Shown piece by piece: positions 268-47,307 of a stretch of DNA of 59,606 nucleotides. This stretch comes from Thermodesulfobacteriota bacterium (GTDB lineage: Bacteria; Desulfobacterota; BSN033; WVXP01; G020346125): NCBI GenBank assembly GCA_041862515.1, contig JBGVTJ010000194.1:1-59606 (forward strand). Reading direction: 5' to 3'. Under the pieces are notes generated by a model. The model made no database searches, was not told the DNA's origin, and saw only the letters and a program-made list of their open reading frames with translations. How positions within the stretch are numbered: position 1 is the stretch's first letter; each line of letters opens with the position of its first letter. Made by a program: the position numbers and the translations under genes.

Positions 268-660
268 CTACCTCTCAGCCTTGCCCTGCTGAGGGGTAAC
301 AGATCCCGAAGCATAGGGAGAAGGGTTTTCTCTGATGGAAATTCTCATTCTTCCGTAACAGAAATTCTCATTCTTCTTGTGAATGCGGTTGGCCTCTGAT
401 ATTATAGGAGCAATGAGGTGGTCCTCCTGATATCTTCGCTGCCAGGCGGACCGTAGAAGGTTGTGGAAGGGTTTTATGCGCTCTCTCTTTTGTTCATAAG
501 AGATCTTCTGCTTTGTTTTCGCTAAGGCACTAAATGCTATCATTCTGTCCTCAAGGTTGAATCGGACTTTGACCGTGATGCCAATCAGTTGCCAAAGATA
601 TTGAGGCAATTCAAAAAGGGGAACAGGTAAAATGGGGTTCCAAAAGACCTCTTTTGCCAA
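268..660 (-). CDS. hypothetical protein (possibly a degenerate Y1/RAYT-type transposase C-terminal remnant)
   Basis: 130-aa ORF. It shows only weak motif resemblance (AWQRRYQEDHLI, ISIRENP) to the WQRxYxDHxI / YIxxNP tail of COG1943 transposases. It is adjacent to an R1 repeat. Confidence 0.3.
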   Translation of the reverse strand: MAKEVFWNPILPVPLFELPQYLWQLIGITVKVRFNLEDRMIAFSALAKTKQKISYEQKRERIKPFHNLLRSAWQRRYQEDHLIAPIISEANRIHKKNENFCYGRMRISIRENPSPYASGSVTPQQGKAER

Positions 661-745
661 AAAAAGGGGCGGGCTTCAAGAAAACTATGGAGTTGAAGGA
701 TATTTGTCGAAGACGGCAACGGGAAAAAAGCAAAGGAATTCCAAA

Positions 746-1240
746 ATGCTATTTCCAACAATAACGATGGCACTCATTGCCGGTATTTTAATCCTGATCG
801 GCTACCTCAGGGGAGGAGGAGAACATATTATTGGATTGCGAAGGGCTGGGAATATGACGATCCAAATCCTCCCGCTTTTGGCATGTGCGTTCACGGTGGC
901 GGGTATGGTCCAGGTTCTCATCCCCCATGATATTTTGGTCAAATGGGTAGGAGTGAAGTCTGGGATACGGGGTATCATGATCGGCACCATAGCGGGCGGT
1001 TTTGCCCCTGGAGGACCCTACATAAGCCTCCCTATCGCAGCCGGCCTCCTGCGGGCAGGGGCCAGTGTAGGAACAATGGTGGCATTCTTGACCGGCTGGT
1101 CATTATGGGCGGTAGGCCGACTGCCAATGGAACTAGGCATCATGGGCTGGAAATTCACCCTTATCAGACTCGCATGTACCTTTTTTTTCCCTCCCATAGC
1201 AGGGATATTAGCGAACAGATTTTTCTCAGCTCTTATCTGA
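746..1240 (+). CDS. predicted permease (DUF318/UPF0718-like), about half the usual length
   Basis: Hydrophobic multi-TM sequence (GGFAPGGPYISLPIAAGLLRAGASVGTMVAFLTGW). The ATG at 746 begins the hydrophobic part. The upstream part of ORF 632..1240 is not protein-like. Confidence 0.55.
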   Translation: MLFPTITMALIAGILILIGYLRGGGEHIIGLRRAGNMTIQILPLLACAFTVAGMVQVLIPHDILVKWVGVKSGIRGIMIGTIAGGFAPGGPYISLPIAAGLLRAGASVGTMVAFLTGWSLWAVGRLPMELGIMGWKFTLIRLACTFFFPPIAGILANRFFSALI

Positions 1241-5887: not shown

Positions 5888-7684
5888 ATGAGCGATAACG
5901 TAGCCCAGATAGCCCTTAAGGGAAATTTGATTAGCTCGGAGCAGTATCAAAAGGCGGTGGAAGAACAGAAGGTGAAGGGAGGCAGTATGGGGGCAAGCCT
6001 CATTCGGATGGGAGTAGTTAAGGAGGACGCCCTCCTCTCCTGCCTCAGTAGATATTATAAAGTCCCATCGGTCAAGATATCCAATATGCAAATAGATACG
6101 AAGATCACCGGTTTGGTCCCATCCAGCATGGCAAAGAAACATCTCATCATCCCTATCAACCGAGTAGGGGCTAAGCTGACCTTGGCCATGGCGGATCCGA
6201 ATAACTTCCTCGCCATCGACGAAATTAAATTCATCACGAGTTTCAATGTAGAACCTGTAGTAGCCTCGGATTACGATATCATCGATGGTATCAAGAAATA
6301 CTATGGGGGCGGTAGAGGTCTCGATGGGAAGGGCTCAGTTTCCATTGATGCCAGAGATTACACCCTGGGTGAGGATGAGCTAGGCACCCTTGAGGAATTC
6401 GATGATGCGGATCTGATCGACGTCGGCGATTTCGATGCCCTCGTCACGGGAGCGGTGGATAAGGTGGAGGTGGTGGAGGGAAGCGATGAAACCGACATGA
6501 AATCCGAAGATATCGATGCCCCGGTCATTAAACTCGTGAACGGGATTTTGATCAACGCCATTAAGGTCGGGGCGAGCGATATCCATTTCGAGCCGTATGA
6601 GAGAACATTCCGGGTTCGATTCCGCGTGGACGGCGTCATGAGGAAGGCGTTGGGATTGCCCGTTCAGATAAAGAATGCTACTGTTTCTCGATTAAAGATC
6701 ATGTCCAGGCTGGATATTGCGGAAAAGAGGCTTCCCCAAGACGGTCGTATTAAGTTGAGATTGGGAAGGCGGGAAATGGATTTCAGGGTCTCCGTTCTGC
6801 CAACCCTCTTCGGAGAAAAAGTAGTCCTTCGTCTCCTCGATAAATCGGCTCTCCAGTTGGATATGACGAAATTGGGCTTTGACGTTGAGGCCCTTGAACA
6901 GTTCAAAGAGGCCGTCCATAAACCTGTAGGCATGGTGTTGGTAACCGGGCCGACGGGAAGCGGGAAAACAACCACCCTTTACTCCGCGCTCTCGGAATTG
7001 AATAAGGAGACCGACAATATCACCACTGCTGAAGATCCCATCGAGTTCAACTTTATGGGGATTAATCAAGTTCAAATGCACGAGGAAATTGGCCTTACCT
7101 TCGCCTCGGCGTTACGCTCTTTCCTCCGACAAGACCCCGATATCATTATGGTGGGGGAGATTCGAGACTTCGAAACGGCCCAGATCGCCATCCAAGCAGC
7201 CCTTACGGGACATCTCGTGATGAGCACCGTCCACACCAACGACGCCCCTGGAACCATAACCAGGCTCATCGATATGGGGATTGAACCCTTCCTCATCACC
7301 TCATCCGTCCTGCTCATCCTGGCCCAAAGGTTGGCGAGGAAAATCTGCACAGAGTGCAAGGAACCCATCCAAATGAATCCAAAAGTGCTCATGGGGCTGG
7401 GTGTCCCTCGAGAGGAGATAGATGGTTTCACCGTCTATAAGGGGAAGGGATGCTCCATATGCAGCAATACCGGTTATAAGGGGAGGATCGGCCTTTATGA
7501 GGTAATGCCCTTATGGGATGAACTGAAAGAACTCGTCCTATCCCGGGCCTCTACCGTGGAGGTTAAAAAGGAAGCGAAAAGGTTTGGGATGAAAACCCTC
7601 AGGATGGCGGGCATTTCTAAAATCAAGGAGGGCATGACCACCATTGAGGAAGTCTTGAGGACCACTATGAATGATCAGAAATGA
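5888..7684 (+). CDS. pilB: type IV pilus assembly ATPase PilB (GspE family)
   Basis: N-terminal T2SSE_N/MshEN-like domain, Walker A GPTGSGKTTT, Asp/His boxes, and a tetracysteine motif CTEC..CSIC. Confidence 0.95.
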   Translation: MSDNVAQIALKGNLISSEQYQKAVEEQKVKGGSMGASLIRMGVVKEDALLSCLSRYYKVPSVKISNMQIDTKITGLVPSSMAKKHLIIPINRVGAKLTLAMADPNNFLAIDEIKFITSFNVEPVVASDYDIIDGIKKYYGGGRGLDGKGSVSIDARDYTLGEDELGTLEEFDDADLIDVGDFDALVTGAVDKVEVVEGSDETDMKSEDIDAPVIKLVNGILINAIKVGASDIHFEPYERTFRVRFRVDGVMRKALGLPVQIKNATVSRLKIMSRLDIAEKRLPQDGRIKLRLGRREMDFRVSVLPTLFGEKVVLRLLDKSALQLDMTKLGFDVEALEQFKEAVHKPVGMVLVTGPTGSGKTTTLYSALSELNKETDNITTAEDPIEFNFMGINQVQMHEEIGLTFASALRSFLRQDPDIIMVGEIRDFETAQIAIQAALTGHLVMSTVHTNDAPGTITRLIDMGIEPFLITSSVLLILAQRLARKICTECKEPIQMNPKVLMGLGVPREEIDGFTVYKGKGCSICSNTGYKGRIGLYEVMPLWDELKELVLSRASTVEVKKEAKRFGMKTLRMAGISKIKEGMTTIEEVLRTTMNDQK

Positions 7685-28707: not shown

Positions 28708-29810
28708 TAGGGGACGTAGTTCCGTACATTCCACTACGCAATTAGTTCTTTTACCCGCCATCCTTTTTCCCGCAATACACGCTCTCCCCTCTCCACACCT
28801 CGAAGAATGCTCTGTTTGGAGACCCCCAGTGCACGGGATACCTCGGTAAGAGACATCCCGTATTCACGAACCGCTACGTAGCTGATCAACGACCTCGCCT
28901 CAATGACTCGCCTCCAACGGCCGCCTCCAGTTACCTCAGTGCTGGATAAATGTAACCTGGATGCCAGCACTTCGATGAGAGAGTCAATCGCTCTTGAAGG
29001 CACCTTGTCCCGAAACCCTGTGCTGGCCTCTTTTGGCTTTGCCTCATCAAGAATCGATCGAACAAAATCGCCACTCCCCAAAATCCTCTCATCATATGAC
29101 CATTTCTCCCGCCCTCTCCTCAATGCTTTCACTTGCTTCCATCCACCCACGCTCCGCACCAAGCCACCTCCCACAAGGTCATCGCGTCGCCCTTGATCTA
29201 TCCCCGCTAGCACAAATTCCCAATACGCCCTGCGAGCCTGCTCCACACGCCTTGCGAACTGAGTTAGAATATATTCTGAATCCTGCCATGAATGATCCCC
29301 CTTCCCCATAAGCACCGCATGGCCACTCCACGGATAGGAATCCAACTCTTCGATCCCAGCCACCAATCCTGCCCGAAGCGGGTTAAGATGAATGTACCGG
29401 ACAAGCTCCAAAAGATACGGCTCCTCTTCCACGAGAATCGACTTGTACCGATTCTGAAACAGATGACCCAAGCGTTTGTGGCGGCTGTTAAAGGAAACGG
29501 CATAGCCTGTCAAAATCTTTCTCATTATGCTAGAAAGCCTCATACGGCCAGTTCGAACTAGCAAGTGAAAATGATTAGGCATAAGGCTCCAGGCATACAC
29601 ACGCGCCTCAGTCTCAGGAACCACTGAGGCAAACCTACCGACAAGATCCCTTCGATCCGTATTTGATGAGAAGATCTTTCGACCTTCCAGGCCACGGACC
29701 ATTATGTGGTGCAAGGCTCCTTCTGTATCCAGTCTTGGTCCACGGGGCATGTTGAAAAGAATAAACTACGTGCCCTAATCTGTCAACGGGATTTTCGGAA
29801 CTACGTCCCT
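28708..29810 (-). mobile_element. putative IS-like unit: Y1/HUH transposase-like gene bracketed by 14-bp perfect inverted repeats
   Basis: GGGACGTAGTTCCG at 28710-28723 and its exact reverse complement CGGAACTACGTCCC at 29796-29809. A degenerate extra copy AACTACGTGCCCT lies at 29764-29776. Confidence 0.55.
28734..29750 (-). CDS. IS200/RAYT-like HUH Y1 transposase domain protein with a C-terminal DnaA-C-like HTH (COG1943 type)
   Basis: HUH motif MPNHFHLLV, catalytic-Tyr region LVRYIHLNPLRAGL, and a C-terminal segment ARSLISYVAVREYGMSLTEVSRALGVS resembling Bac_DnaA_C. Confidence 0.85.
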   Translation of the reverse strand: MPRGPRLDTEGALHHIMVRGLEGRKIFSSNTDRRDLVGRFASVVPETEARVYAWSLMPNHFHLLVRTGRMRLSSIMRKILTGYAVSFNSRHKRLGHLFQNRYKSILVEEEPYLLELVRYIHLNPLRAGLVAGIEELDSYPWSGHAVLMGKGDHSWQDSEYILTQFARRVEQARRAYWEFVLAGIDQGRRDDLVGGGLVRSVGGWKQVKALRRGREKWSYDERILGSGDFVRSILDEAKPKEASTGFRDKVPSRAIDSLIEVLASRLHLSSTEVTGGGRWRRVIEARSLISYVAVREYGMSLTEVSRALGVSKQSILRGVERGERVLREKGWRVKELIA

Positions 29811-30801: not shown

Positions 30802-31639
30802 GGTGGATCCCCCCTCTTCTATTGTCACCTTACGCGGCACCCCTTGAGCATTCATTGTTTTCCTCTCTCGCTTCGCAGTTGAAACTTTTCGACAACCTCA
30901 CTAATGGAGATAAATAGTATTTGCTTCTGGTAACTCCTTTTCATAATTCGTCCCACAGGGTAGCTGATTTCTTGACATCAATGAAAAGCCGAGTCACCCA
31001 TTCACTTCGACAACCCGGCTTTCTTTAAAATTTCTCGATTATTTCGCTGATGCGATCCCGCTTATATACCAGCCAGCTTGGATACAAGCCACTCGCAGAG
31101 TCCAATAGAAACGCAAAGACCCGCGGCTTTCCGTCCTATCCTCTCGGAGAGTTTGGCTTTTCGGTTTAACTTCAAAGTACCCAAGTTGCGGGAGCCACAG
31201 CCCGCATTACGCAGGATGGCACACCGGGCGGTATAAATTTAGTAACTAAGGGACAAATCCCATCAATCTCCGGCTCTATTTTCTGACGGCTCCCGCTTCT
31301 TATAACTCCCTTGGTATCATATACGAACAAAAAATGAAAACCTTGTTTTAGATGATTACCGGATATTACGATCATGCGCACCATTTCCCTTTTTCGCTCA
31401 ATATGTTCAAATGCTTATAATTCCGTGCTTTTGCGATAAATTCCCTAACTACAAAATCTCGCTCAATCTAAGATTAGCTTTAAATTTCTCTCATTTTCTC
31501 ACATTTTTAAAAGATGTTTAGATTTAAAGGTGGGATGAAGTTGACCAGGAGGGGGTTGGGGGAACACGGAAACAAAGATTGATAAGACGAATAGGATACA
31601 AATTTGCCGTAAGATGGCTCTCTTTTGAAAATTAGACAA

Positions 31640-40520: not shown

Positions 40521-41090
40521 ATGAAAATTTTTAATAGAAACTTCTTTATTGGATTGGTAGCAGGGCTAATCCTGACGATCTTAATTCTCATTGGTGGAGG
40601 CTACGTCCTTATGAGGTCATTCACATCAAGGACCGGTGAAAAACTTGAGTCAATACTTCAGCCCCCGCCCTTCCCCACTCAAACAAGAATGGACTACAAC
40701 TGGCGTATTCAAGGACTTGATGGCAAAGAACTCGATGTTGGCAAAAGCAAAGGAAAGGTTATCTTTCTCAATTTCTGGGCGACATGGTGTCCTCCCTGTG
40801 TGGCCGAAATGTCAAGCATCCAACGGCTCTATGACGAGATCAAGAGCGAAGGCATCGATTTCATTTGTGTATCAGACGAGAACAGAACAAAAGTGAGCAA
40901 ATTCATAAAGGAAAAGGGATTTACTTTCCCGATCTATACCCTTGTTGGTGATCAACCTCAAGTTCTCAGGACCCGGGGGATCCCGGCAACATTCATCATT
41001 TCTCAAGATGGTCAAATAGTTTTTAAACATGTAGGTGCCGCAAAGTGGGACCATAAGACGAGCATTGATTTTATGAAGAAGCTTATGTAG
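40521..41090 (+). CDS. TlpA-family membrane-anchored thiol:disulfide oxidoreductase
   Basis: N-terminal TM anchor and a thioredoxin fold with WATWCPPC. Confidence 0.9.
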   Translation: MKIFNRNFFIGLVAGLILTILILIGGGYVLMRSFTSRTGEKLESILQPPPFPTQTRMDYNWRIQGLDGKELDVGKSKGKVIFLNFWATWCPPCVAEMSSIQRLYDEIKSEGIDFICVSDENRTKVSKFIKEKGFTFPIYTLVGDQPQVLRTRGIPATFIISQDGQIVFKHVGAAKWDHKTSIDFMKKLM

Positions 41091-41210
41091 TCAAATCCTT
41101 AAGTGCCCCATAACACCAGAACGGCAGCTCATTGTCTTTGCGCGAGCTTCCTTCGGCGGCTTCATCAATCCGGGAAATATGAGGCGCTATATTACCATTA
41201 AAAGGAAGGG

Positions 41211-41876
41211 ATGAAGAAGATGCGTGAAGCGATAACGATAACAGCAGTATTAATTCTTACAACCCCTTTAGCTCTTTCCCAAGATTTGAAATCGCCCTAT
41301 GCGGGTCAAGAAAAAAGGGGGATAAAATCCCTCTCGAGAGAAAAGATTCAGGAATACTTATCAGGAGGGGGTATGGGCTTAGCGAAAGCAGGCGAACTGA
41401 ATCACTATCCAGGACCCAAGCATGTTTTGGATTTGGCGAAGGAATTGTATCTTTCAAAAAAACAGCTATTTGAGACGGAGGAGATTTATAACAGAATGCA
41501 TGGAGAAGCGGTTCGGCTCGGAAGATTAATTGTTGAGCAGGAAAAGATCCTGGACAGTCTCTTTGCCGAGCAAAAGATTGATGAAACGCAGCTTCAATCT
41601 CTCACTGCTGGGATCGCTAAGGATCAAGGCAAACTTCGTTTTATTCATTTGAGAGCTCATGTGGAGATGAAAAAGGTTCTTTCAGCAAAGCAGATTGACA
41701 AATATGATGCGCTACGGGGGTATAAATCGAGCGGAGGAAAAAATGACGGCCTCCCGGACATCAAGAGGATGAACCCGATCGTATTCTCCATGCACGACAA
41801 TAACTACTGGAAAGTCGGGGAACACCTCGCCCGAGCGTGGGACATTGGAAAGGAATTCAAAACGAAGAAGGAATAG
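41211..41876 (+). CDS. periplasmic Spy/CpxP/ZraP-like (LTxxQ-motif) protein
   Basis: Signal peptide, two LSxxQ motifs (LSKKQ, LSAKQ), and predicted helical content. Confidence 0.65.
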   Translation: MKKMREAITITAVLILTTPLALSQDLKSPYAGQEKRGIKSLSREKIQEYLSGGGMGLAKAGELNHYPGPKHVLDLAKELYLSKKQLFETEEIYNRMHGEAVRLGRLIVEQEKILDSLFAEQKIDETQLQSLTAGIAKDQGKLRFIHLRAHVEMKKVLSAKQIDKYDALRGYKSSGGKNDGLPDIKRMNPIVFSMHDNNYWKVGEHLARAWDIGKEFKTKKE

Positions 41877-41977
41877 AAAGGGCCTCTTCGGACAACAAGT
41901 GGTTCTGAATTCGCACTTCTTGAAGCTTGTTGCCTTCTCTGAAGGAACAAATCTCCTGACTGGACTGTCTTAGTTAG

Positions 41978-42586
41978 ATGAGGGAAACCGAGCAGAAAAC
42001 AACGGATGAAGACTATGAATTTGTCTCTTTATGTAAAGAGGGTGATGTCGATGCCTTTGAAGTCTTGGTAAGAAAGCACCAGAAAAGGATGCTTAATATT
42101 GCTTACAGGATGATTGGGAACTATGAAGAGGCATGCGATGTCGTACAGGATGCATTTATCTCCGCATATAGAAGTATCAAGGGTTTTAAGGGAAAGGCCA
42201 AATTCTCCACATGGCTTTATACGATAGTCATGAATCTTTCGAAAAACCGCCTCAAGCAGTTGAGGACACAACTCCATCGTGAGAAGTTTTCAATAGATGA
42301 CCCTGTTCTTACCAATAGTGGCCAGATAAGAGGAGAACTCGCCTCGATCGGACCTTCTGCCCTTGAAAGCCTTGAAAGAAGGGATGTCCAGCAAAAAGTG
42401 CAGGAATGTATAAACTCCCTCGATGAAGAATTCAGAGAAGTACTGATTCTGAGGGATATCCAAGGCTTCTCTTATGACGAGATTGGCGATGTTCTTACAG
42501 TACCGGAAGGTACCGTCAAATCAAGGCTTTTTAGGGCAAGGGAAGCTGTCAAGGATTGTTTGAAGAAAGTGATTGGAGATCTATGA
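41978..42586 (+). CDS. ECF-type RNA polymerase sigma-70 family factor
   Basis: Region 2 (DVVQDAFISAY..FSTWLYTIVMN) and region 4 (LILRDIQGFSYDEIGDVLTVPEGTVKSRLFRAR). Confidence 0.92.
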   Translation: MRETEQKTTDEDYEFVSLCKEGDVDAFEVLVRKHQKRMLNIAYRMIGNYEEACDVVQDAFISAYRSIKGFKGKAKFSTWLYTIVMNLSKNRLKQLRTQLHREKFSIDDPVLTNSGQIRGELASIGPSALESLERRDVQQKVQECINSLDEEFREVLILRDIQGFSYDEIGDVLTVPEGTVKSRLFRAREAVKDCLKKVIGDL

Positions 42587-42587
42587 T

Positions 42588-43508
42588 ATGGAGTGCAGTG
42601 ACATTCAAGAAAAGCTGTCCGCTTACATGGAGGGCATTATTTCTCACGGAGAGAAGGTGCTTATCGATGGACATCTAAAGGCCTGCCAGAAATGCAGCGG
42701 GTCTCTTGCTGACCTGAAGAAGACCCTTGAGTATGTGCAGAATCTCGAAGAGGTGGAGCCTCCTCCATGGTTGACAGGGAAGGTTATGGCGAGTCTGAGA
42801 TCAGAAGGCGCGCCAAAAAGGCAAATATTCCAGAGATTATTTTATCCACTCCATATAAAGCTGCCAATTGAGGCCCTTGCTACCATTTTCATAGCAGTGG
42901 CAACGATTTATGTCTTCAAAACAATGCAACCGGAGATGGAAGGTGCAAAAGCACCCCCGGCAGAGATCACATCACGAATCCCTTTACAAGAGAAAGAAAA
43001 AACCTCTCCTCTTGATGAGGGCAAACCCCTCCCCGCCAAACCCACAGAGAAATTCATGTTTTCAGAAGAACGAGAAATCTCACCAGGCAAATCCCTAGAG
43101 CCACCCAAAGCCCCTGCGAGAATTGCAAAACGGGACGAGGTTGAACCATTAGCAGACGCCATTGGAAAACGTGAATATAAACGCAAAGCCTTATCGCCCG
43201 AATTGAGAGCAGCACTGGTTGAAAGGGAACGGAAGGGTGTTAGCTTAACAATTGATGTCAAGGACATCGAGACTGCTGGGAGAGAAATTGAGAAGGCTTT
43301 TATCAAACTGGGGGGGAAAATAATCAAAAAAGAGTATTTTGACCAGAGAAACATCATTGCCGCTGAGCTTGATGCCAAAAAGGTGAAGGATCTATTTGAA
43401 AAACTAAACGTCCTTGGAGAAGTGAAAGAAAAGGCATTGACTTTAGAGACCCGGGAGGGTGATATAGAGATAAGGATAGAGATTACAAAGATACCAAGAG
43501 GGCCTTGA
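42588..43508 (+). CDS. anti-sigma factor with an N-terminal zf-HC2 domain and one TM helix
   Basis: The C..H..C..C pattern (CSDIQEKL..HLKACQKC) lies immediately after the sigma gene (overlap/adjacent). A single TM helix and an extracytoplasmic domain follow. Confidence 0.85.
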   Translation: MECSDIQEKLSAYMEGIISHGEKVLIDGHLKACQKCSGSLADLKKTLEYVQNLEEVEPPPWLTGKVMASLRSEGAPKRQIFQRLFYPLHIKLPIEALATIFIAVATIYVFKTMQPEMEGAKAPPAEITSRIPLQEKEKTSPLDEGKPLPAKPTEKFMFSEEREISPGKSLEPPKAPARIAKRDEVEPLADAIGKREYKRKALSPELRAALVERERKGVSLTIDVKDIETAGREIEKAFIKLGGKIIKKEYFDQRNIIAAELDAKKVKDLFEKLNVLGEVKEKALTLETREGDIEIRIEITKIPRGP

Positions 43509-43643
43509 TAATTCATTCGCGTAACAAAAGTGGACATATTACTCCAGGGAATTTGTTGGAGGCATAGAGCAAGGAATCTTTTCCGATATGAATGAGTTAT
43601 CCAACGTTCTCTTCGAGACGCTCCATGAAAAGGAGGTGCTATC

Positions 43644-43859
43644 ATGGCGGAAAAGACTATCATCTATGGCAAGGATGGCTGACCGTATACGAGCAGGGCC
43701 AGGGAGGCCTTTGGAAATACCGCAGAATACTTCGATGTCAAATCGGATAGCACGAAATTAGACGAGATGTTAACGTATTCCAATGGCGGTCGGGAAGTGC
43801 CGGTTATTGTAAAGGGAGATAAGGTGACCATCGGTTACGGGGGCACATGAGATGTGTGA
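43644..43859 (+). CDS. glutaredoxin-fold small protein with two in-frame UGA codons (candidate selenoprotein, UPYT motif and C-terminal U-D-V-stop)
   Basis: AGGAGG (43631-43636) lies 7 nt before the ATG at 43644. Translation is MAEKTIIYGKDG-TGA(43680)-PYTSRAREAFGNTAEYFDVKSDSTKLDEMLTYSNGGREVPVIVKGDKVTIGYGGT-TGA(43848)-DV-TGA(43857). A Grx-like VPVI..G motif is present. Hairpins start about 12 nt after each UGA. Confidence 0.7.
43695..43711 (+). other. SECIS-like hairpin after the first UGA of the Grx-like gene
   Basis: AGGGCC-AGGGA-GGCCUU: a 6-bp stem (one G-U pair). The loop occupies nt 22-26 counted from the U of UGA, with G at position 23. Confidence 0.4.
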
Positions 43860-43860
43860 T

Positions 43861-43897
43861 TACCGGTAGTCTATCGGTACCTTTCTCCTTTGTACCG
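43861..43897 (+). other. two overlapping hairpins after the second UGA / 3' end of the Grx-like gene
   Basis: UACCG-GUAGUCUAU-CGGUA (43861-43879, loop starts with GU) and CGGUAC-CUUUCUCCUUU-GUACCG (43875-43897). Confidence 0.4.
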
Positions 43898-44173
43898 TAA
43901 TCGAGATAGTTATTTCACCCCAGGGGACGTTTTGGTATCTTCCGTTAAATCCTTGCCTCTTTTCCGTCATCAAAATTCTCCAAGCTGACAAGAATCACAC
44001 CCTGAAGGTGTAATGAGGAACCCTTTCGTGGGTTAAAATAACCTCTCAATTCCAGTACCTTCCAATCCCTCCTGAGTATTCGTAACAAAAATTAACGATA
44101 TTCGGGAACTTTTTGCGAACCTCCTTTGTCTTATGAACCAAGATCGATCAAAAAACATCAAAGGAGGTTTAAG

Positions 44174-45631
44174 ATGAGAAGGACATATCATTACAGTATT
44201 TTGTTGGTTATATTCTTCATAGGAATTGCCAGTAGTGGATTGGCGGTTACGGAAAGAGACGACGAAAAACCTCGAGTCCTTTCCACGACATTGGAAGACC
44301 AAAGAGGAGTTGCAGTAACAATTTACAACGTCAACCTCGGACTGGTAAAAGACCAGAGGGAGATAAGACTTCCCCAGGGGACCGGGGAGTTGAGGTTCAT
44401 GGATGTGGCCTCCAAGATAATACCTACAAGCGTCTATATCAGATCCCTCACAGACCCTCAAAGCCTCCAGATCCTTGAACAGAACTACGAATATGACCTG
44501 CTCAACCCCCAAAAGCTCCTCGACAAATATGTGGGTAAAGAGGTGAAACTTTACTATAGAAATCCCTACACGGAGAGGGAGGAGATTGTAACGGCCATAC
44601 TTCTCGCCAATAACGGAGGGCCAATATTTAAGATCGGTGACGAGATAACCTTCGGGTATCCCGGAAGGATTATATTCCCTGAGGTTCCGGATAGCCTTAT
44701 CTCAAAACCCACCCTTGTTTGGCTCGTCGAGAACAATCTCCCAACATCTCAGAAGATTGAGACGTCGTATCTCACAAATGACATCAACTGGAGGGCCGAC
44801 TATGTGGTAACATTGAACGAGGAGGACGACAGGGCAGACCTTTCTGGATGGGTGACCATCAAGAATACGAGTGGGGCAACATACCGAAATGCAAGGCTCA
44901 AACTCGTCGCAGGGGATGTAAATAGGGTGAGGAACGAATGGGAATATAAAGATAAGATGCTTCGGGCAGCCATGAAAGAGGCAAGACCAGCCGAACCGCA
45001 GTTTCAGCAGGAAGAGTTCTTTGAGTATCACATATATACCCTGCAGAGGCCGGCAACGATTAAACAAAATCAGACGAAACAGATCGGTCTTGTAACTGCT
45101 GATAACATTCCGGTTAAAAAAGAGCTCCTCTACTATGGAGCAAGATTTTACTACCGCAACCGACAGGGTGGGGTGATATCGAACCAGAAGGTTAGTGTGT
45201 TCGTGGAGATAGAAAATAAGAAGGAGAATAACCTCGGTATTCCCCTCCCAAAAGGCACGATCAGGGTCTACAAACATGACAGAGAAAGAAGCTTACAATT
45301 TGTCGGGGAGGATTCCATAGACCATACACCGAAGGATGAGAAGGTCAGGATAAAACTCGGTGATGCCTTTGATGTGGTTGGAAGCAGAAAACAGATGAAC
45401 TGGAGAAAGATTGCCTATGATACGTACGAAGCGAGCTTTGAAATCTCGCTGAGAAATCACAAGAAGGAGGACGTCTTCGTGAAGGTTGTTGAGCCGATAC
45501 CTGGAGACTGGGTGATGCTCAGTTCATCGCATGAATATTCAAAGACAGAGGCTTTCACTGCTGAGTTTACCGTTCGAGTCCCGAAGGATAAGGAGACAAA
45601 GTTGACATACAGTGTGAGGATGAGATTCTAG
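44174..45631 (+). CDS. DUF4139 domain-containing protein (secreted/anchored)
   Basis: AGGAGG SD before the ATG at 44174. Signal-like N-terminus. A TIYN..LGLV.. beta-rich architecture typical of DUF4140/DUF4139 proteins. Confidence 0.75.
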   Translation: MRRTYHYSILLVIFFIGIASSGLAVTERDDEKPRVLSTTLEDQRGVAVTIYNVNLGLVKDQREIRLPQGTGELRFMDVASKIIPTSVYIRSLTDPQSLQILEQNYEYDLLNPQKLLDKYVGKEVKLYYRNPYTEREEIVTAILLANNGGPIFKIGDEITFGYPGRIIFPEVPDSLISKPTLVWLVENNLPTSQKIETSYLTNDINWRADYVVTLNEEDDRADLSGWVTIKNTSGATYRNARLKLVAGDVNRVRNEWEYKDKMLRAAMKEARPAEPQFQQEEFFEYHIYTLQRPATIKQNQTKQIGLVTADNIPVKKELLYYGARFYYRNRQGGVISNQKVSVFVEIENKKENNLGIPLPKGTIRVYKHDRERSLQFVGEDSIDHTPKDEKVRIKLGDAFDVVGSRKQMNWRKIAYDTYEASFEISLRNHKKEDVFVKVVEPIPGDWVMLSSSHEYSKTEAFTAEFTVRVPKDKETKLTYSVRMRF

Positions 45632-45640
45632 GTGGTCGAC

Positions 45641-45674
45641 GGGGAACGGACCATAAGGATCAAGGCCGTTCCCC
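45641..45674 (+). terminator. 9-bp perfect-stem hairpin just after the DUF4139 stop (no U-tract)
   Basis: GGGGAACGG (45641-45649), a 16-nt loop, then CCGTTCCCC (45666-45674). Confidence 0.3.
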
Positions 45675-45940
45675 GCGCCCTCGTGACAAGAGAGATAAGT
45701 AGGATATCAAGAGAACTCGGCACTCAACCACTGAAGCATAGCCCATATGGCCTCAAGGTCTTTCGGGTTATATTACTTTCTTTCTCTCATCGAAATCTTT
45801 GGCGCGAACCCCTAAAGCTGGACACTCTACGGGAGCATATCTCCCATGCCAGCTCCCTTTCTTGGCCTACTAGACTCAGGGGGTGGAAGTGACAGTAATA
45901 CGTGGGCGGACCCCAACCCCGGTGCGCCATAAGGTTTAAT

Positions 45941-46240
45941 TTAGAATACGTCCTTAAGAGCGTGGGCGGCTGTGTACACGCTCCCTACCCCACTAATGTA
46001 ATGGGCGACTCTTAAGGTTTCCGTGATCTCCTCTTTTGTAGCACCAGCCCCTATCGCTGCCTGAGCTAAGGCCCTCACACCCTCAATAGTTCCGTGAGAT
46101 GCATCCAAAGCCATCGCGATGAGAAGCTTAAACTTCTTGGGCAAGGCACCTTCTGTAAGAGCGAGCTCACGGGTATTTCCAACGAGTTTGAGAAGTTCCG
46201 GATCGAGCATCTCAAAAATCTTCAAGGGATTTCCAACCAT
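45941..46240 (-). CDS. carboxymuconolactone decarboxylase (AhpD-like) family protein
   Basis: GGGAGGGGGG SD before the ATG at 46240. CMD-fold sequence (LPKKFKLLIAMALDASHG..EEITETLRVAHYISG). Confidence 0.8.
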   Translation of the reverse strand: MVGNPLKIFEMLDPELLKLVGNTRELALTEGALPKKFKLLIAMALDASHGTIEGVRALAQAAIGAGATKEEITETLRVAHYISGVGSVYTAAHALKDVF

Positions 46241-46533
46241 TTCATCACCCCCCTCCCTCACTATTGCGTTCGGGATTGTATTATCATTCCACCTGAATTC
46301 CATGTTATGTACAATAGCAAAGTCAGGAAAGAAGTCAATTGGTGATGTTTGCAAATTCTCAGGGATTCTCGGTTATCGAGAATTTTCTTTTTCAAATCTG
46401 CTGATGTTCCGGTTCCACGGGATACCCAATGAGTATCCATGGTATAATCCAGTATGGTCGATCAAGAAATTGACCTCTTCCCATTTAGCTCAATTCCGTT
46501 ACACTATCTATAGGAGCTATGGAAGGCCTAAAA

Positions 46534-47307
46534 ATGAAGAAAGAGATAACTGCCTTGATCATTTCAATTCCGATGATGTTTTCGGCAATTCACGCGGCGT
46601 CATCAGCTCCTTTTGATCATTCTCAATTTGACCTAGTACTTAAACAGTACGTTGATGAGGAGGGGCTGGTAGATTACAATGGAATCGCTCAAGACCGGCG
46701 TTTCTCAGAGTATATGAAATCACTCGAGTGGGCAAAGGTCGAGGAGCTGTCGCGGGATGGTCAACTCGCCTTCTGAATCAATGCGTACAATGCGGTCACC
46801 ATTGACAAGGTGATCAAGAAGAAGCCGAAAGAGAGTGTTCGGGAGACCATCATTCCGGGCGTCTGGACTTCCACCAAATTCTTTCGCTCTCGTGAACATA
46901 CCGTGGCCAACAGGCTTTTGAGCCAGGACGACATTGAAAATGAGATCTTGCGGAAGAATTTCAAAGACCCACGGATCCATTTTGCCATCATCTGTGCCTC
47001 CTCGAGTTGCCCCAAGCTACCGAAAAATGCTTATACGGAAGCGAACGTTCAGGCCCGCCTGGAAGAAGAGACGCGAGAATATTTGAATTCAGAACGGGGC
47101 GTCCGGATAGACCGTACGAGAAATACCCTTTATCTGTCCCGAATATTCGACTGGTCCGGGGAAGATTTTGTCGAACAATCCGGTTCTGTTGCGAACTTTA
47201 TACGGCCCTACCTGAAAAGAGAAGTTGTTTCCTTTCTCGATCAGAAGCCAAAGGTGAAATTTCTGGGATACAACTGGGCTTTGAATGCCCAGAAACCCCT
47301 GAGATAA
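46534..47307 (+). pseudogene. DUF547 family gene with a single in-frame TGA at the conserved Trp of the AFWINAYN motif
   Basis: ORFs 46519..46776 and 46810..47307 are in the same frame. The sequence reads ..DGQLAF-TGA(46774-46776)-INAYNAVTI.., where DUF547 proteins have LAFWIN(A/L)YN as recalled. Confidence 0.75.

What the first reader, a model, noticed from the sequence alone, without database searches (positions are those of the whole stretch)
43631..43897. Hidden glutaredoxin-fold gene with two in-frame UGA codons (U-P-Y-T redox motif and C-terminal U-x-x-stop): candidate selenoprotein
**Seen in sequence**
- A strong SD (AGGAGG) lies 7 nt before the ATG at 43644.
- After 12 codons a TGA (43680-43682) sits exactly where glutaredoxin/YruB-type proteins have the first Cys of CPYC (..IIYGKDG-U-PYT..).
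- The same frame stays open for 55 more codons with Grx-fold hallmarks (..GGREVPVIVKGDKVTIGY..).
- A second TGA (43848) is followed by GAT GTG TGA, which reads as U-D-V-stop.
- Each UGA is followed about 12 nt later by a hairpin with G in the first loop positions.
- The ORF track misses the gene entirely.

**Established knowledge**
Bacterial Sec insertion needs a hairpin just 3' of the UGA, and Sec normally aligns with a redox Cys. I recall a curated family called 'Uxx-star family glutaredoxin-like (seleno)protein' that ends in U-x-x-stop. That name must be verified.

**Inference**
This is a two-Sec or one-Sec selenoprotein.
Basis: partly seen in the sequence, partly recalled or inferred. Interest (0 to 1): 0.8.

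Follow-up and report, generated by a model that had tools for sequence, protein, structure and literature searches.

The report
Known two-selenocysteine glutaredoxin-like gene

Summary
AGGAGG lies 7 nt before the ATG at 43644. TGA is codon 13, in a U-P-Y-T motif. A second TGA at 43848 is followed by GAT GTG TGA. With U read as C, the product scores 109.7 bits against NCBIfam NF041114 "UXX-star selenoprotein family 1" (cut-off 72).

In 80 related genome loci from several phyla:
- The first position is TGA in 73 and Cys in 5.
- The second position is TGA in all 80.
- U-x-x-stop is kept in 78, with Gly and Val each spelled by all four codons and all three terminators in use.

Both UGAs are followed by a hairpin whose loop starts 18 nt downstream. 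Both hairpins show compensatory changes (0 of 500 shuffles reach the observed values). The first decays in the Cys forms. The second has an invariant loop G and rarely a U-tail.

A second in-frame TGA in the window (DUF547 gene, 46774) sits on a conserved Trp codon and is a plain G→A change, which gives a useful negative control.

The family was already described in 2008 and is listed in a 2026 review as having two Sec residues. Its function is untested. No Sec machinery lies in the window. Verdict: real, correctly interpreted, already known; modest interest.

The parts
43631..43636 (+). Shine-Dalgarno sequence AGGAGG, 7 nt upstream of the start codon
   Evidence: Read directly from the sequence.
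43644..43859 (+). Coding sequence of the UXX-star family 1 selenoprotein: 71 residues, MAEKTIIYGKDG-U-PYT...GYGGT-U-DV, plus the TGA terminator
   Evidence: Translation. NF041114 scores 109.7 bits against a cut-off of 72. Pfam Glutaredoxin scores 32 bits. The frame stays open between the two UGAs in all 80 loci.
43680..43682 (+). UGA-1, Sec codon 13, the first residue of the U-P-Y-T active-site motif
   Evidence: Aligns with the first Cys of CPYC/CPHC in solved glutaredoxins. TGA in 73 and TGT/TGC in 5 of 80 related loci.
43695..43711 (+). SECIS-1 hairpin inside the coding sequence: stem AGGGCC/GGCCUU, loop AGGGA at 43701-43705, conserved 4-bp core 43697-43700 with 43706-43709
   Evidence: Fold. 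In 74 Sec forms, 95.9% of cells are paired against 83.4% in shuffles (0/500). The pair at columns 21/27 is CG 59, UA 12, AU 3 and is never broken. All four pairs form in 63/74 Sec forms and 0/6 Cys/Tyr forms.
43848..43850 (+). UGA-2, Sec codon 69, three codons before the end (U-D-V-stop)
   Evidence: TGA in 81/81 sequences. U-x-x-stop in 79/81. x1 is Gly spelled by GGC/GGG/GGT/GGA and x2 is Val by all four GTN codons.
43857..43859 (+). True terminator (TGA), 1 nt before the SECIS-2 stem
   Evidence: Across the family the fourth codon is TGA 36, TAA 32, TAG 11. The terminator lies a median of 2 nt from the stem, while the Sec-UGA lies a median of 11 nt from it.
43861..43879 (+). SECIS-2 hairpin in the 3' untranslated region: 8-bp stem, loop GUC at 43869-43871
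   Evidence: Fold. Across 79 sequences, all 6 pairs show compensatory changes, with 86.7% paired against 61.2% in shuffles (0/500) and 24-44% when slid. The loop G is invariant 79/79. There are 17-21 nt from UGA to that G in 73/79.

Best explanation
[quoted passage not shown] It has two selenocysteines.

**Shown by sequence and comparison**
- Both UGA codons are conserved.
- The reading frame is kept through them.
- Each UGA is followed by a conserved, covarying hairpin whose apical loop starts 18 nt after the codon and carries a conserved G.

**Inferred from established knowledge of bacterial Sec decoding**
- SelB-GTP-Sec-tRNA(Sec) binds each hairpin while the UGA is in the ribosomal A site and inserts Sec.
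- SECIS-1 is written into the codons for A-R-E/S-A.
- SECIS-2 lies just past the stop codon, in the 3' UTR.
- Spacing decides which UGA is read as Sec. The Sec-UGA is about 10-11 nt from the stem, while the terminator is only 1-2 nt away and so is read by the release factor.

**Inferred function (weakest step)**
- Sec13 is the attacking residue of a U-P-Y-T monothiol-type active site.
- The protein ends right after the GG loop that borders the active site in glutaredoxins.
- Sec69 on the short tail could therefore act as the resolving partner (a diselenide), or the two Sec residues could together bind a metal or metalloid.
For: - **Gene anatomy:**
- **Family score above the curated cut-offs:**
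- **Grx fold:** Pfam; PDB sequence hits 2klx and 3ic4 with U13 aligned to the first active-site Cys; AF2 model of a Cys-form homologue with pLDDT 86 and topology b-a-b-a-b-b, no C-terminal helix; Foldseek TM-score 0.80 to 3ic4, with NrdH and cGrx1 next.
- **UGA conservation:** position 1 is TGA 74, Cys 5; position 2 is TGA 81/81; U-x-x-stop in 79/81, with synonymous Gly and Val codons and all three terminators. There are no extra stops between the two positions.
- **Database 'W' residues are TGA:** shown on DNA.
- **SECIS covariation and controls:**. SECIS-1 is lost in the Cys forms. The loop G is invariant and the spacing tight.
- **Decoding machinery in relatives:** tRNA-Sec lies next to the gene in two related genomes.
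- **Literature:** the family is listed with motif UxxT and 2 Sec (PMC13188914).
Against: - No selA, selB, selD or tRNA-Sec lies in the 59.6-kb window, so Sec decoding in this genome is not demonstrated.
- No Cys homologue exists at the C-terminal position in 81 sequences, so UGA-2 lacks the classical Sec/Cys pair.
- Single-sequence folding energies are not better than shuffles, and Rfam has no matching SECIS model.
- The window's SECIS-2 is followed by a U-rich tail and is flagged as terminator-like by a lenient scan.
- dN/dS against the closest relative is 0.54, higher than most neighbours at 0.14-0.32.
- The gene neighbourhood is not conserved, so it gives no functional clue.
- The redox or metal function is pure inference. 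No biochemical work on this family was found.
Confidence: 0.87

Rival explanations
1. One-Sec protein. Only UGA-1 encodes Sec. UGA-2 is the real stop codon, the protein ends at Thr68, and the downstream hairpin is a transcription terminator or an mRNA-stabilising stem.
For: No homologue has Cys at the second position. The window's hairpin is followed by CCUUUCUCCU and is flagged as terminator-like. Gene callers using the standard code end the protein at GGT (P0009, P0012-P0016).
Against: - An in-frame terminator sits exactly two codons after UGA-2 in 79/81 sequences, using TGA, TAA and TAG.
- The two codons vary mainly at third positions (Gly by 4 codons, Val by 4 codons), and replacements are conservative (A/D/T; I/L). 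Neither feature would be selected after a true stop.
- Only 3/79 hairpins have a U4 run, and 9/79 have even a lenient U-rich tail.
- The loop G is invariant in 79/79, and the UGA-to-loop distance equals that of SECIS-1.
- The published family entry lists 2 Sec.
Confidence: 0.06
2. Relic gene. The gene belongs to the family but is no longer expressed as a selenoprotein in this organism, because the Sec machinery was lost or the gene is decaying.
For: There is no Sec machinery in the window. dN/dS against L003 is 0.54. The orthologue in the closest relative, L003, has ACG where the window has ATG. A nearby gene (DUF547) carries a nonsense change. No second selenoprotein gene was found in the window.
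Against: The Shine-Dalgarno sequence, ATG, both UGAs, both hairpins and the terminator are all intact. The only stem change against L003 is G-U to G-C. dN/dS is still below 1. 59.6 kb is a small sample of the genome, so absence of sel genes from it means little.
Confidence: 0.05
3. Artefact or recoding. The TGAs are either sequencing or nonsense errors in a Cys-type glutaredoxin gene, or TGA is a sense codon (Trp or Gly) in this organism, as some gene callers assumed.
For: Ten database homologues are stored with W at both positions. The window does contain one genuine TGG-to-TGA change (DUF547).
Against: TGA is kept at the same two codons in independent assemblies from several phyla. TGA also terminates this same gene in 36/81 cases and many neighbouring genes. 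The sense alternative at position 1 is Cys, never Trp. The 'W' entries are TGA read with the wrong code and run on through the real terminator.
Confidence: 0.02

Closest known systems
UXX-star selenoprotein family 1 (NCBIfam NF041114), also called 'Distant Grx-like protein 1' (attributed to Zhang & Gladyshev 2008; listed in PMC13188914)
   Same: It matches in every feature: about 70 residues, a glutaredoxin-like fold, a UxxT motif near the N-terminus, a second Sec three codons before the end, two SECIS hairpins, and a score well above the curated cut-off.
   Different: Only minor details differ. The SECIS-1 loop is AGGGA where the family majority is AGGUC or CGUGA. The tail is U-D-V (3/81) where most have U-G-V (60/81).
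Other Uxx-star families (NF041211 family 2, NF047338 family 3, NF045501 HUGP/GUXX-star fusion)
   Same: They share the small Grx-like domain ending in Sec-x-x-stop, and all fall under the umbrella model NF041212, which this protein passes.
   Different: This protein scores far below their cut-offs: 42.8 vs 100, 40 vs 97 and 44.8 vs 325. Loci L063 and L069, with CPFC/YPFC motifs and multi-Sec tails (U-x-L-S-U-x-x-U), show what a different subfamily looks like.
Clostridial selenoprotein glutaredoxin (UxxC; Kim et al. 2011; structures of the Cys form, cGrx1 7c10)
   Same: It has Sec at the first position of the Grx active site and the same core fold (Foldseek TM-score 0.72-0.76).
   Different: The clostridial protein has UxxC with a resolving Cys in the motif, a C-terminal helix and one Sec. 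Here the motif is UxxT, the C-terminal helix is missing and a second Sec sits on the tail.
NrdH-redoxin and YruB-type small glutaredoxin-like proteins
   Same: They have a similar size and fold (4hs1, 1h75 at TM-score 0.67-0.77).
   Different: HMM scores are far below the cut-offs: TIGR02194 13.1 vs 85.75 and TIGR02196 30.8 vs 88.55. These proteins have CxxC and no Sec.
Animal thioredoxin reductase C-terminal Gly-Cys-Sec-Gly tail (own knowledge, an analogy only)
   Same: A Sec sits a few residues from the C-terminus on a flexible tail that shuttles redox equivalents, and its SECIS lies beyond the stop codon.
   Different: It is an unrelated fold with the eukaryotic SECIS/SBP2 system. Here the 3'-UTR SECIS is a bacterial-type hairpin immediately after the stop.

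Membership tests
[quoted passage not shown] | HMM score at or above the curated cut-off (72 bits) | tested here: met
   109.7 bits, E = 6.1e-32, covering profile positions 2-70 of 70.
[quoted passage not shown] | UGA (Sec) at the first position of the N-terminal U-x-x-T motif | tested here: met
   TGA at 43680-43682 in U-P-Y-T. UPYT/UPFT/UPHT/UPFS occurs in 73 of the 81 sequences (80 loci plus the window), and Cys in 5.
[quoted passage not shown] | C-terminal Sec followed by exactly two residues and a stop (U-x-x-star) | tested here: met
   TGA GAT GTG TGA at 43848-43859. The pattern is kept in 79/81 sequences.
[quoted passage not shown] | A bacterial SECIS hairpin downstream of each UGA | tested here: met
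   Both hairpins are present. They covary across 74 and 79 sequences, with 0/500 shuffles reaching the observed values. There is a conserved loop G and an 18-nt spacing. Rfam has no matching SECIS model.
[quoted passage not shown] | Glutaredoxin/thioredoxin-type fold | tested here: met
   PF00462 scores 32 bits against 22.9. PDB hits are 2klx and 3ic4. The AF2 model of homologue P0009 has pLDDT 86, and Foldseek gives TM-score 0.80 to 3ic4.
Any bacterial selenoprotein | selA, selB, selC (tRNA-Sec) and selD present in the same genome | not testable with these tools
   None lies in the window, and the rest of the genome is not available. tRNA-Sec lies beside the gene in related loci L004 and L057.
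Any bacterial selenoprotein | Selenium actually incorporated at the UGA positions | not testable with these tools
   This needs 75Se labelling or mass spectrometry.
Classical dithiol glutaredoxin (e.g. TIGR02181 Grx3) | C-P-Y-C active site and a score above the family cut-off | tested here: not met
   The motif is U-P-Y-T. TIGR02181 scores 29.4 against 90. The C-terminal helix is absent in the model.
YruB-family glutaredoxin-like protein (TIGR02196) | Score above the cut-off of 88.55 | tested here: not met
   30.8 bits.

The most novel reading that the evidence does not exclude
The two selenocysteines form an intramolecular diselenide that replaces the CxxC disulfide of glutaredoxins, giving a very low-potential redox centre on a truncated Grx fold. 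In addition, the terminal Sec is inserted by a SECIS lying wholly in the 3' UTR, and the ribosome tells the Sec-UGA from a terminator UGA only 6 nt downstream purely by distance to the hairpin. Neither point has been tested experimentally for this family, as far as the searched literature shows.
Probability: 0.3. Interest if true: 0.5.

Novelty: already known. Interest (0 to 1): 0.25.

Why it matters
For annotation, this is a real gene that plain ORF finding misses. Some pipelines also mistranslate it: database copies carry Trp at the UGA sites and run on past the true stop.

For biology, it is one more instance of a small, widespread but rare two-Sec protein whose function is unknown. The family is a clean natural test case for how bacterial ribosomes choose between Sec insertion and termination at UGA codons only 6 nt apart. 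That question belongs to the family as a whole, not to this window.

Tried and rejected
- **Single-sequence folding:** energies of both hairpins were no better than shuffles. This is uninformative for short stems.
- **Rfam:** neither the gathering nor the permissive threshold gave a SECIS match.
- **Gene neighbourhood across 81 loci:** the only large cluster was the antisense shadow of the gene itself, and real neighbours recur in at most 8 loci. This gives no functional clue.
- **Second selenoprotein (DUF547, TGA at 46774):** rejected. Homologues have Trp in 117 of 120, and a 98.3%-identical contig and the syntenic relative both have TGG.
- **ORF 632-1240:** it resembles a SO_0444/SaoE permease fragment, but what follows its stop is AT-rich intergenic sequence with several stops.
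- **Window-wide sweep** for in-frame TGA with a redox motif and a SECIS-like hairpin: one hit, antisense inside another ORF. The scan was crude and would not have found the target gene itself.
- **Structure prediction of the U-to-C window protein:** A Cys-form database homologue was modelled instead. Coordinates are not returned, so the Sec13-Sec69 distance could not be measured.
- **Haft & Tolstoy 2025 (PMC12013261):** not held in the library.
- **Flanks of tRNA-Sec in L004 and L057:** they hold uvrB, mutS2 and fabK-like genes, with no selA or selB.

Full report
**Observation.** The sequence is as described.
- AGGAGG at 43631-43636 is followed by a 7-nt spacer and ATG at 43644.
- The frame reads MAEKTIIYGKDG-TGA-PYTSRAREAFGNTAEYFDVKSDSTKLDEMLTYSNGGREVPVIVKGDKVTIGYGGT-TGA-DV-TGA.
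- The TGAs are at 43680, 43848 and 43857.
- The mechanical ORF list has nothing in this frame at 30 aa or more.
- A hairpin with stem AGGGCC/GGCCUU and loop AGGGA begins 12 nt after UGA-1.
- An 8-bp hairpin with loop GUC begins 10 nt after UGA-2, 1 nt after the final TGA.
- Taken alone, these hairpins fold no better than shuffled sequence (z = 0.05-0.96). The single-sequence structure claim is therefore weak, and comparison is needed.

**Family.** With U replaced by C, the protein matches NCBIfam NF041114 'UXX-star selenoprotein family 1' (an equivalog model) at 109.7 bits against a cut-off of 72. Families 2 and 3, the HUGP fusion, YruB, NrdH and classical glutaredoxins all score far below their cut-offs. 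Pfam sees a Glutaredoxin domain.

**Conservation of the UGA codons.** A protein search returned 16 relatives.
- Ten carry 'W' at both positions and often run on past the end.
- Three have Cys at the first position and stop at the second.
- Three start after the first position and end at the second.

Reading the DNA of the closest relative showed that every 'W' is TGA, so those entries were called with a TGA=Trp code.

A scan of one genome per species found 136 relatives and kept 80 loci. They come from Thermodesulfobacteriota, Nitrospirota, Acidobacteriota, Myxococcota, Fervidibacter and others. At the DNA level, counting the 80 loci plus the window:
- Position 1 is TGA in 74, TGT/TGC in 5 and TAT in 1. 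One locus is not alignable.
- Position 2 is TGA in 81 of 81.
- The tail is U-x-x-stop in 79 of 81.
- x1 is Gly spelled GGC 26, GGG 23, GGT 12, GGA 6.
- x2 is Val spelled by all four GTN codons.
- Replacements are conservative (A, D, T; I, L).
- The terminator is TGA 36, TAA 32, TAG 11.
- No locus has another stop between the two positions.

Third-position variation, and a terminator kept exactly two codons later, are signatures of translation through UGA-2.

**SECIS elements.**
- *UGA-1 (74 Sec forms).* A 4-bp helix is written into the codons for Ala-Arg-Ser/Glu-Ala. It is 95.9% paired, against 83.4% in shuffles (0/500) and 17-64% when the partner is slid. One pair, formed by two third-codon positions, is C-G 59, U-A 12, A-U 3 and is never broken. 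All four pairs form in 63/74 Sec forms and in 0/6 Cys or Tyr forms. So the hairpin is kept only where UGA is kept.
- *UGA-2 (79 sequences).* All 6 predicted pairs show double changes. 86.7% of cells are paired, against 61.2% in shuffles. There are 155 double-change cells against 40.5 expected (0/500). Slid controls give 24-44%.
- *Loop and spacing.* The first loop base is G in 79/79, followed by U or G in 77. The distance from UGA-2 to that G is 18 nt in 46 sequences and 17-21 nt in 73. In the window, both loops start 18 nt after their UGA.
- *Not a terminator.* Only 3/79 hairpins are followed by a U4 run, and 9/79 (including the window) by a lenient U-rich tail.

**Internal negative control.** The window holds another gene interrupted by one TGA: DUF547 at 46519-47307, with TGA at 46774-46776 in LAF-TGA-INAYNA. 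Here 117 of 120 homologues have Trp. A 98.3%-identical contig (L081) and the syntenic relative L003 both have TGG, so the only difference is G to A at 46776. This is what a nonsense change or assembly error looks like, and the target gene looks nothing like it.

**Fold.**
- Sequence search of the PDB finds glutaredoxins 2klx and 3ic4, with U13 aligned to the first active-site Cys.
- An AlphaFold2 model of the Cys-form homologue P0009 (pLDDT 86) has topology b-a-b-a-b-b and ends just after strand 4, with no C-terminal helix.
- Foldseek places it with A. fulgidus Grx-1 (TM-score 0.80), NrdH-redoxins and Clostridium cGrx1.

**Context and machinery.**
- The window is ordinary chromosome: dnaE, mutL, guaA, guaB, hflX, pilB/T/C and two-component systems.
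- The gene follows an ECF sigma factor and its zf-HC2 anti-sigma factor, and it precedes a DUF4139 protein. A ResA-like thiol-disulfide oxidoreductase and a CMD-family protein are nearby.
- This arrangement is shared with L003, an uncultured Syntrophobacterales MAG at 89-95% nucleotide identity, but not across the family.
- No tRNA-Sec, selA, selB or selD lies in the window.
- tRNA-Sec lies about 430 nt downstream of the gene in L057 and about 5.4 kb downstream in L004.

**Mechanism.**
- *Shown:* two conserved UGAs, each with a conserved hairpin at the same distance.
- *Inferred from the established bacterial mechanism:* SelB-GTP-Sec-tRNA(Sec) binds each hairpin and decodes the UGA. The terminator, only 1-2 nt from the SECIS-2 stem, is too close to be decoded this way and is read by the release factor. 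That would explain how a UGA terminator can sit 6 nt after a UGA Sec codon in 36 of 81 genes.
- *Inferred function:* Sec13 is the nucleophile of a monothiol-type U-P-Y-T site. The protein stops right after the GG loop that borders the active site in glutaredoxins. Sec69 is therefore well placed to act as resolving partner (a diselenide), or to bind a metal together with Sec13, as the 2026 review suggests for UXX-star proteins.

**Caveats.**
- There is no Cys variant at position 69.
- dN/dS against L003 is 0.54, against 0.14-0.32 for most neighbours.
- The L003 orthologue has ACG in place of the ATG.
- The rest of the genome is unseen.

[quoted passage not shown] It attributes the related UXX-star families to Haft & Tolstoy 2025. 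In the main text of the 2008 paper, the phrase 'distant Grx' does not occur and only a generic 'Grx-like' family (UxxC) appears. The attribution therefore rests on the review. This gene matches the published description in every feature. It is a correct call on an already known family, so interest is modest.

Noticed in passing
window 46519-47307 (+), TGA at 46774-46776: A DUF547 gene is interrupted by one in-frame TGA on a conserved Trp codon (LAF-W-INAYNA). A 98.3%-identical contig (L081) and the syntenic relative L003 both have TGG. This is a G-to-A nonsense change, strain variant or assembly error, not Sec.
   Followed up: yes
window 31006-31167 (-): A c-di-GMP-I riboswitch aptamer (RF01051, 50.7 bits against a gathering score of 35) lies in a roughly 2.6-kb stretch without long ORFs. 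The gene it controls was not identified.
   Followed up: no
P0001-P0008, P0010, P0011; L082:399-692: Public protein collections hold copies of this selenoprotein with Trp at both Sec positions, extended past the real terminator, because the contigs were gene-called with a TGA=Trp code. This was verified on DNA for P0001.
   Followed up: yes
L003:5995-5997 (orthologue in the closest relative): The orthologue in the syntenic Syntrophobacterales MAG has ACG where the window has the ATG start, while both UGAs and both hairpins are intact. dN/dS between the two copies is 0.54, higher than most neighbouring genes.
   Followed up: partly
L057:6001-6253 and 6634-6731; L004:11640-11737: tRNA-Sec lies about 430 nt downstream of the UXX-star gene in L057, where the N-terminal half of the gene is out of frame. 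It lies about 5.4 kb downstream in L004. No selA or selB was found in those flanks.
   Followed up: partly
L063:3483-3560 and L069:325-400: Two relatives have CPFC or YPFC active-site motifs and a longer tail with three in-frame TGAs (U-R/S-L-S-U-G/S-S/C-U). They presumably belong to a different Uxx-star subfamily with several C-terminal Sec residues.
   Followed up: no
window 40521-43508 and 44126-46354: The local context is redox- and stress-flavoured: a ResA/TlpA-like CPPC thiol-disulfide oxidoreductase, an ECF sigma factor with a zf-HC2/DUF2275 anti-sigma factor directly upstream, and DUF4139 and a Cys-less CMD-family protein downstream. It is shared with L003 but not with the wider family.
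   Followed up: partly
window 632-1240 (+): A 202-aa ORF matches only the first third of the SO_0444/SaoE efflux-permease models, a family the review lists among selenoproteins. Nothing coding follows its TGA.
   Followed up: yes
window 28734-29750 (-): The N-terminal 141 residues of this ORF resemble a REP-associated tyrosine transposase (73.2 bits, just under the cut-off of 80).
   Followed up: no
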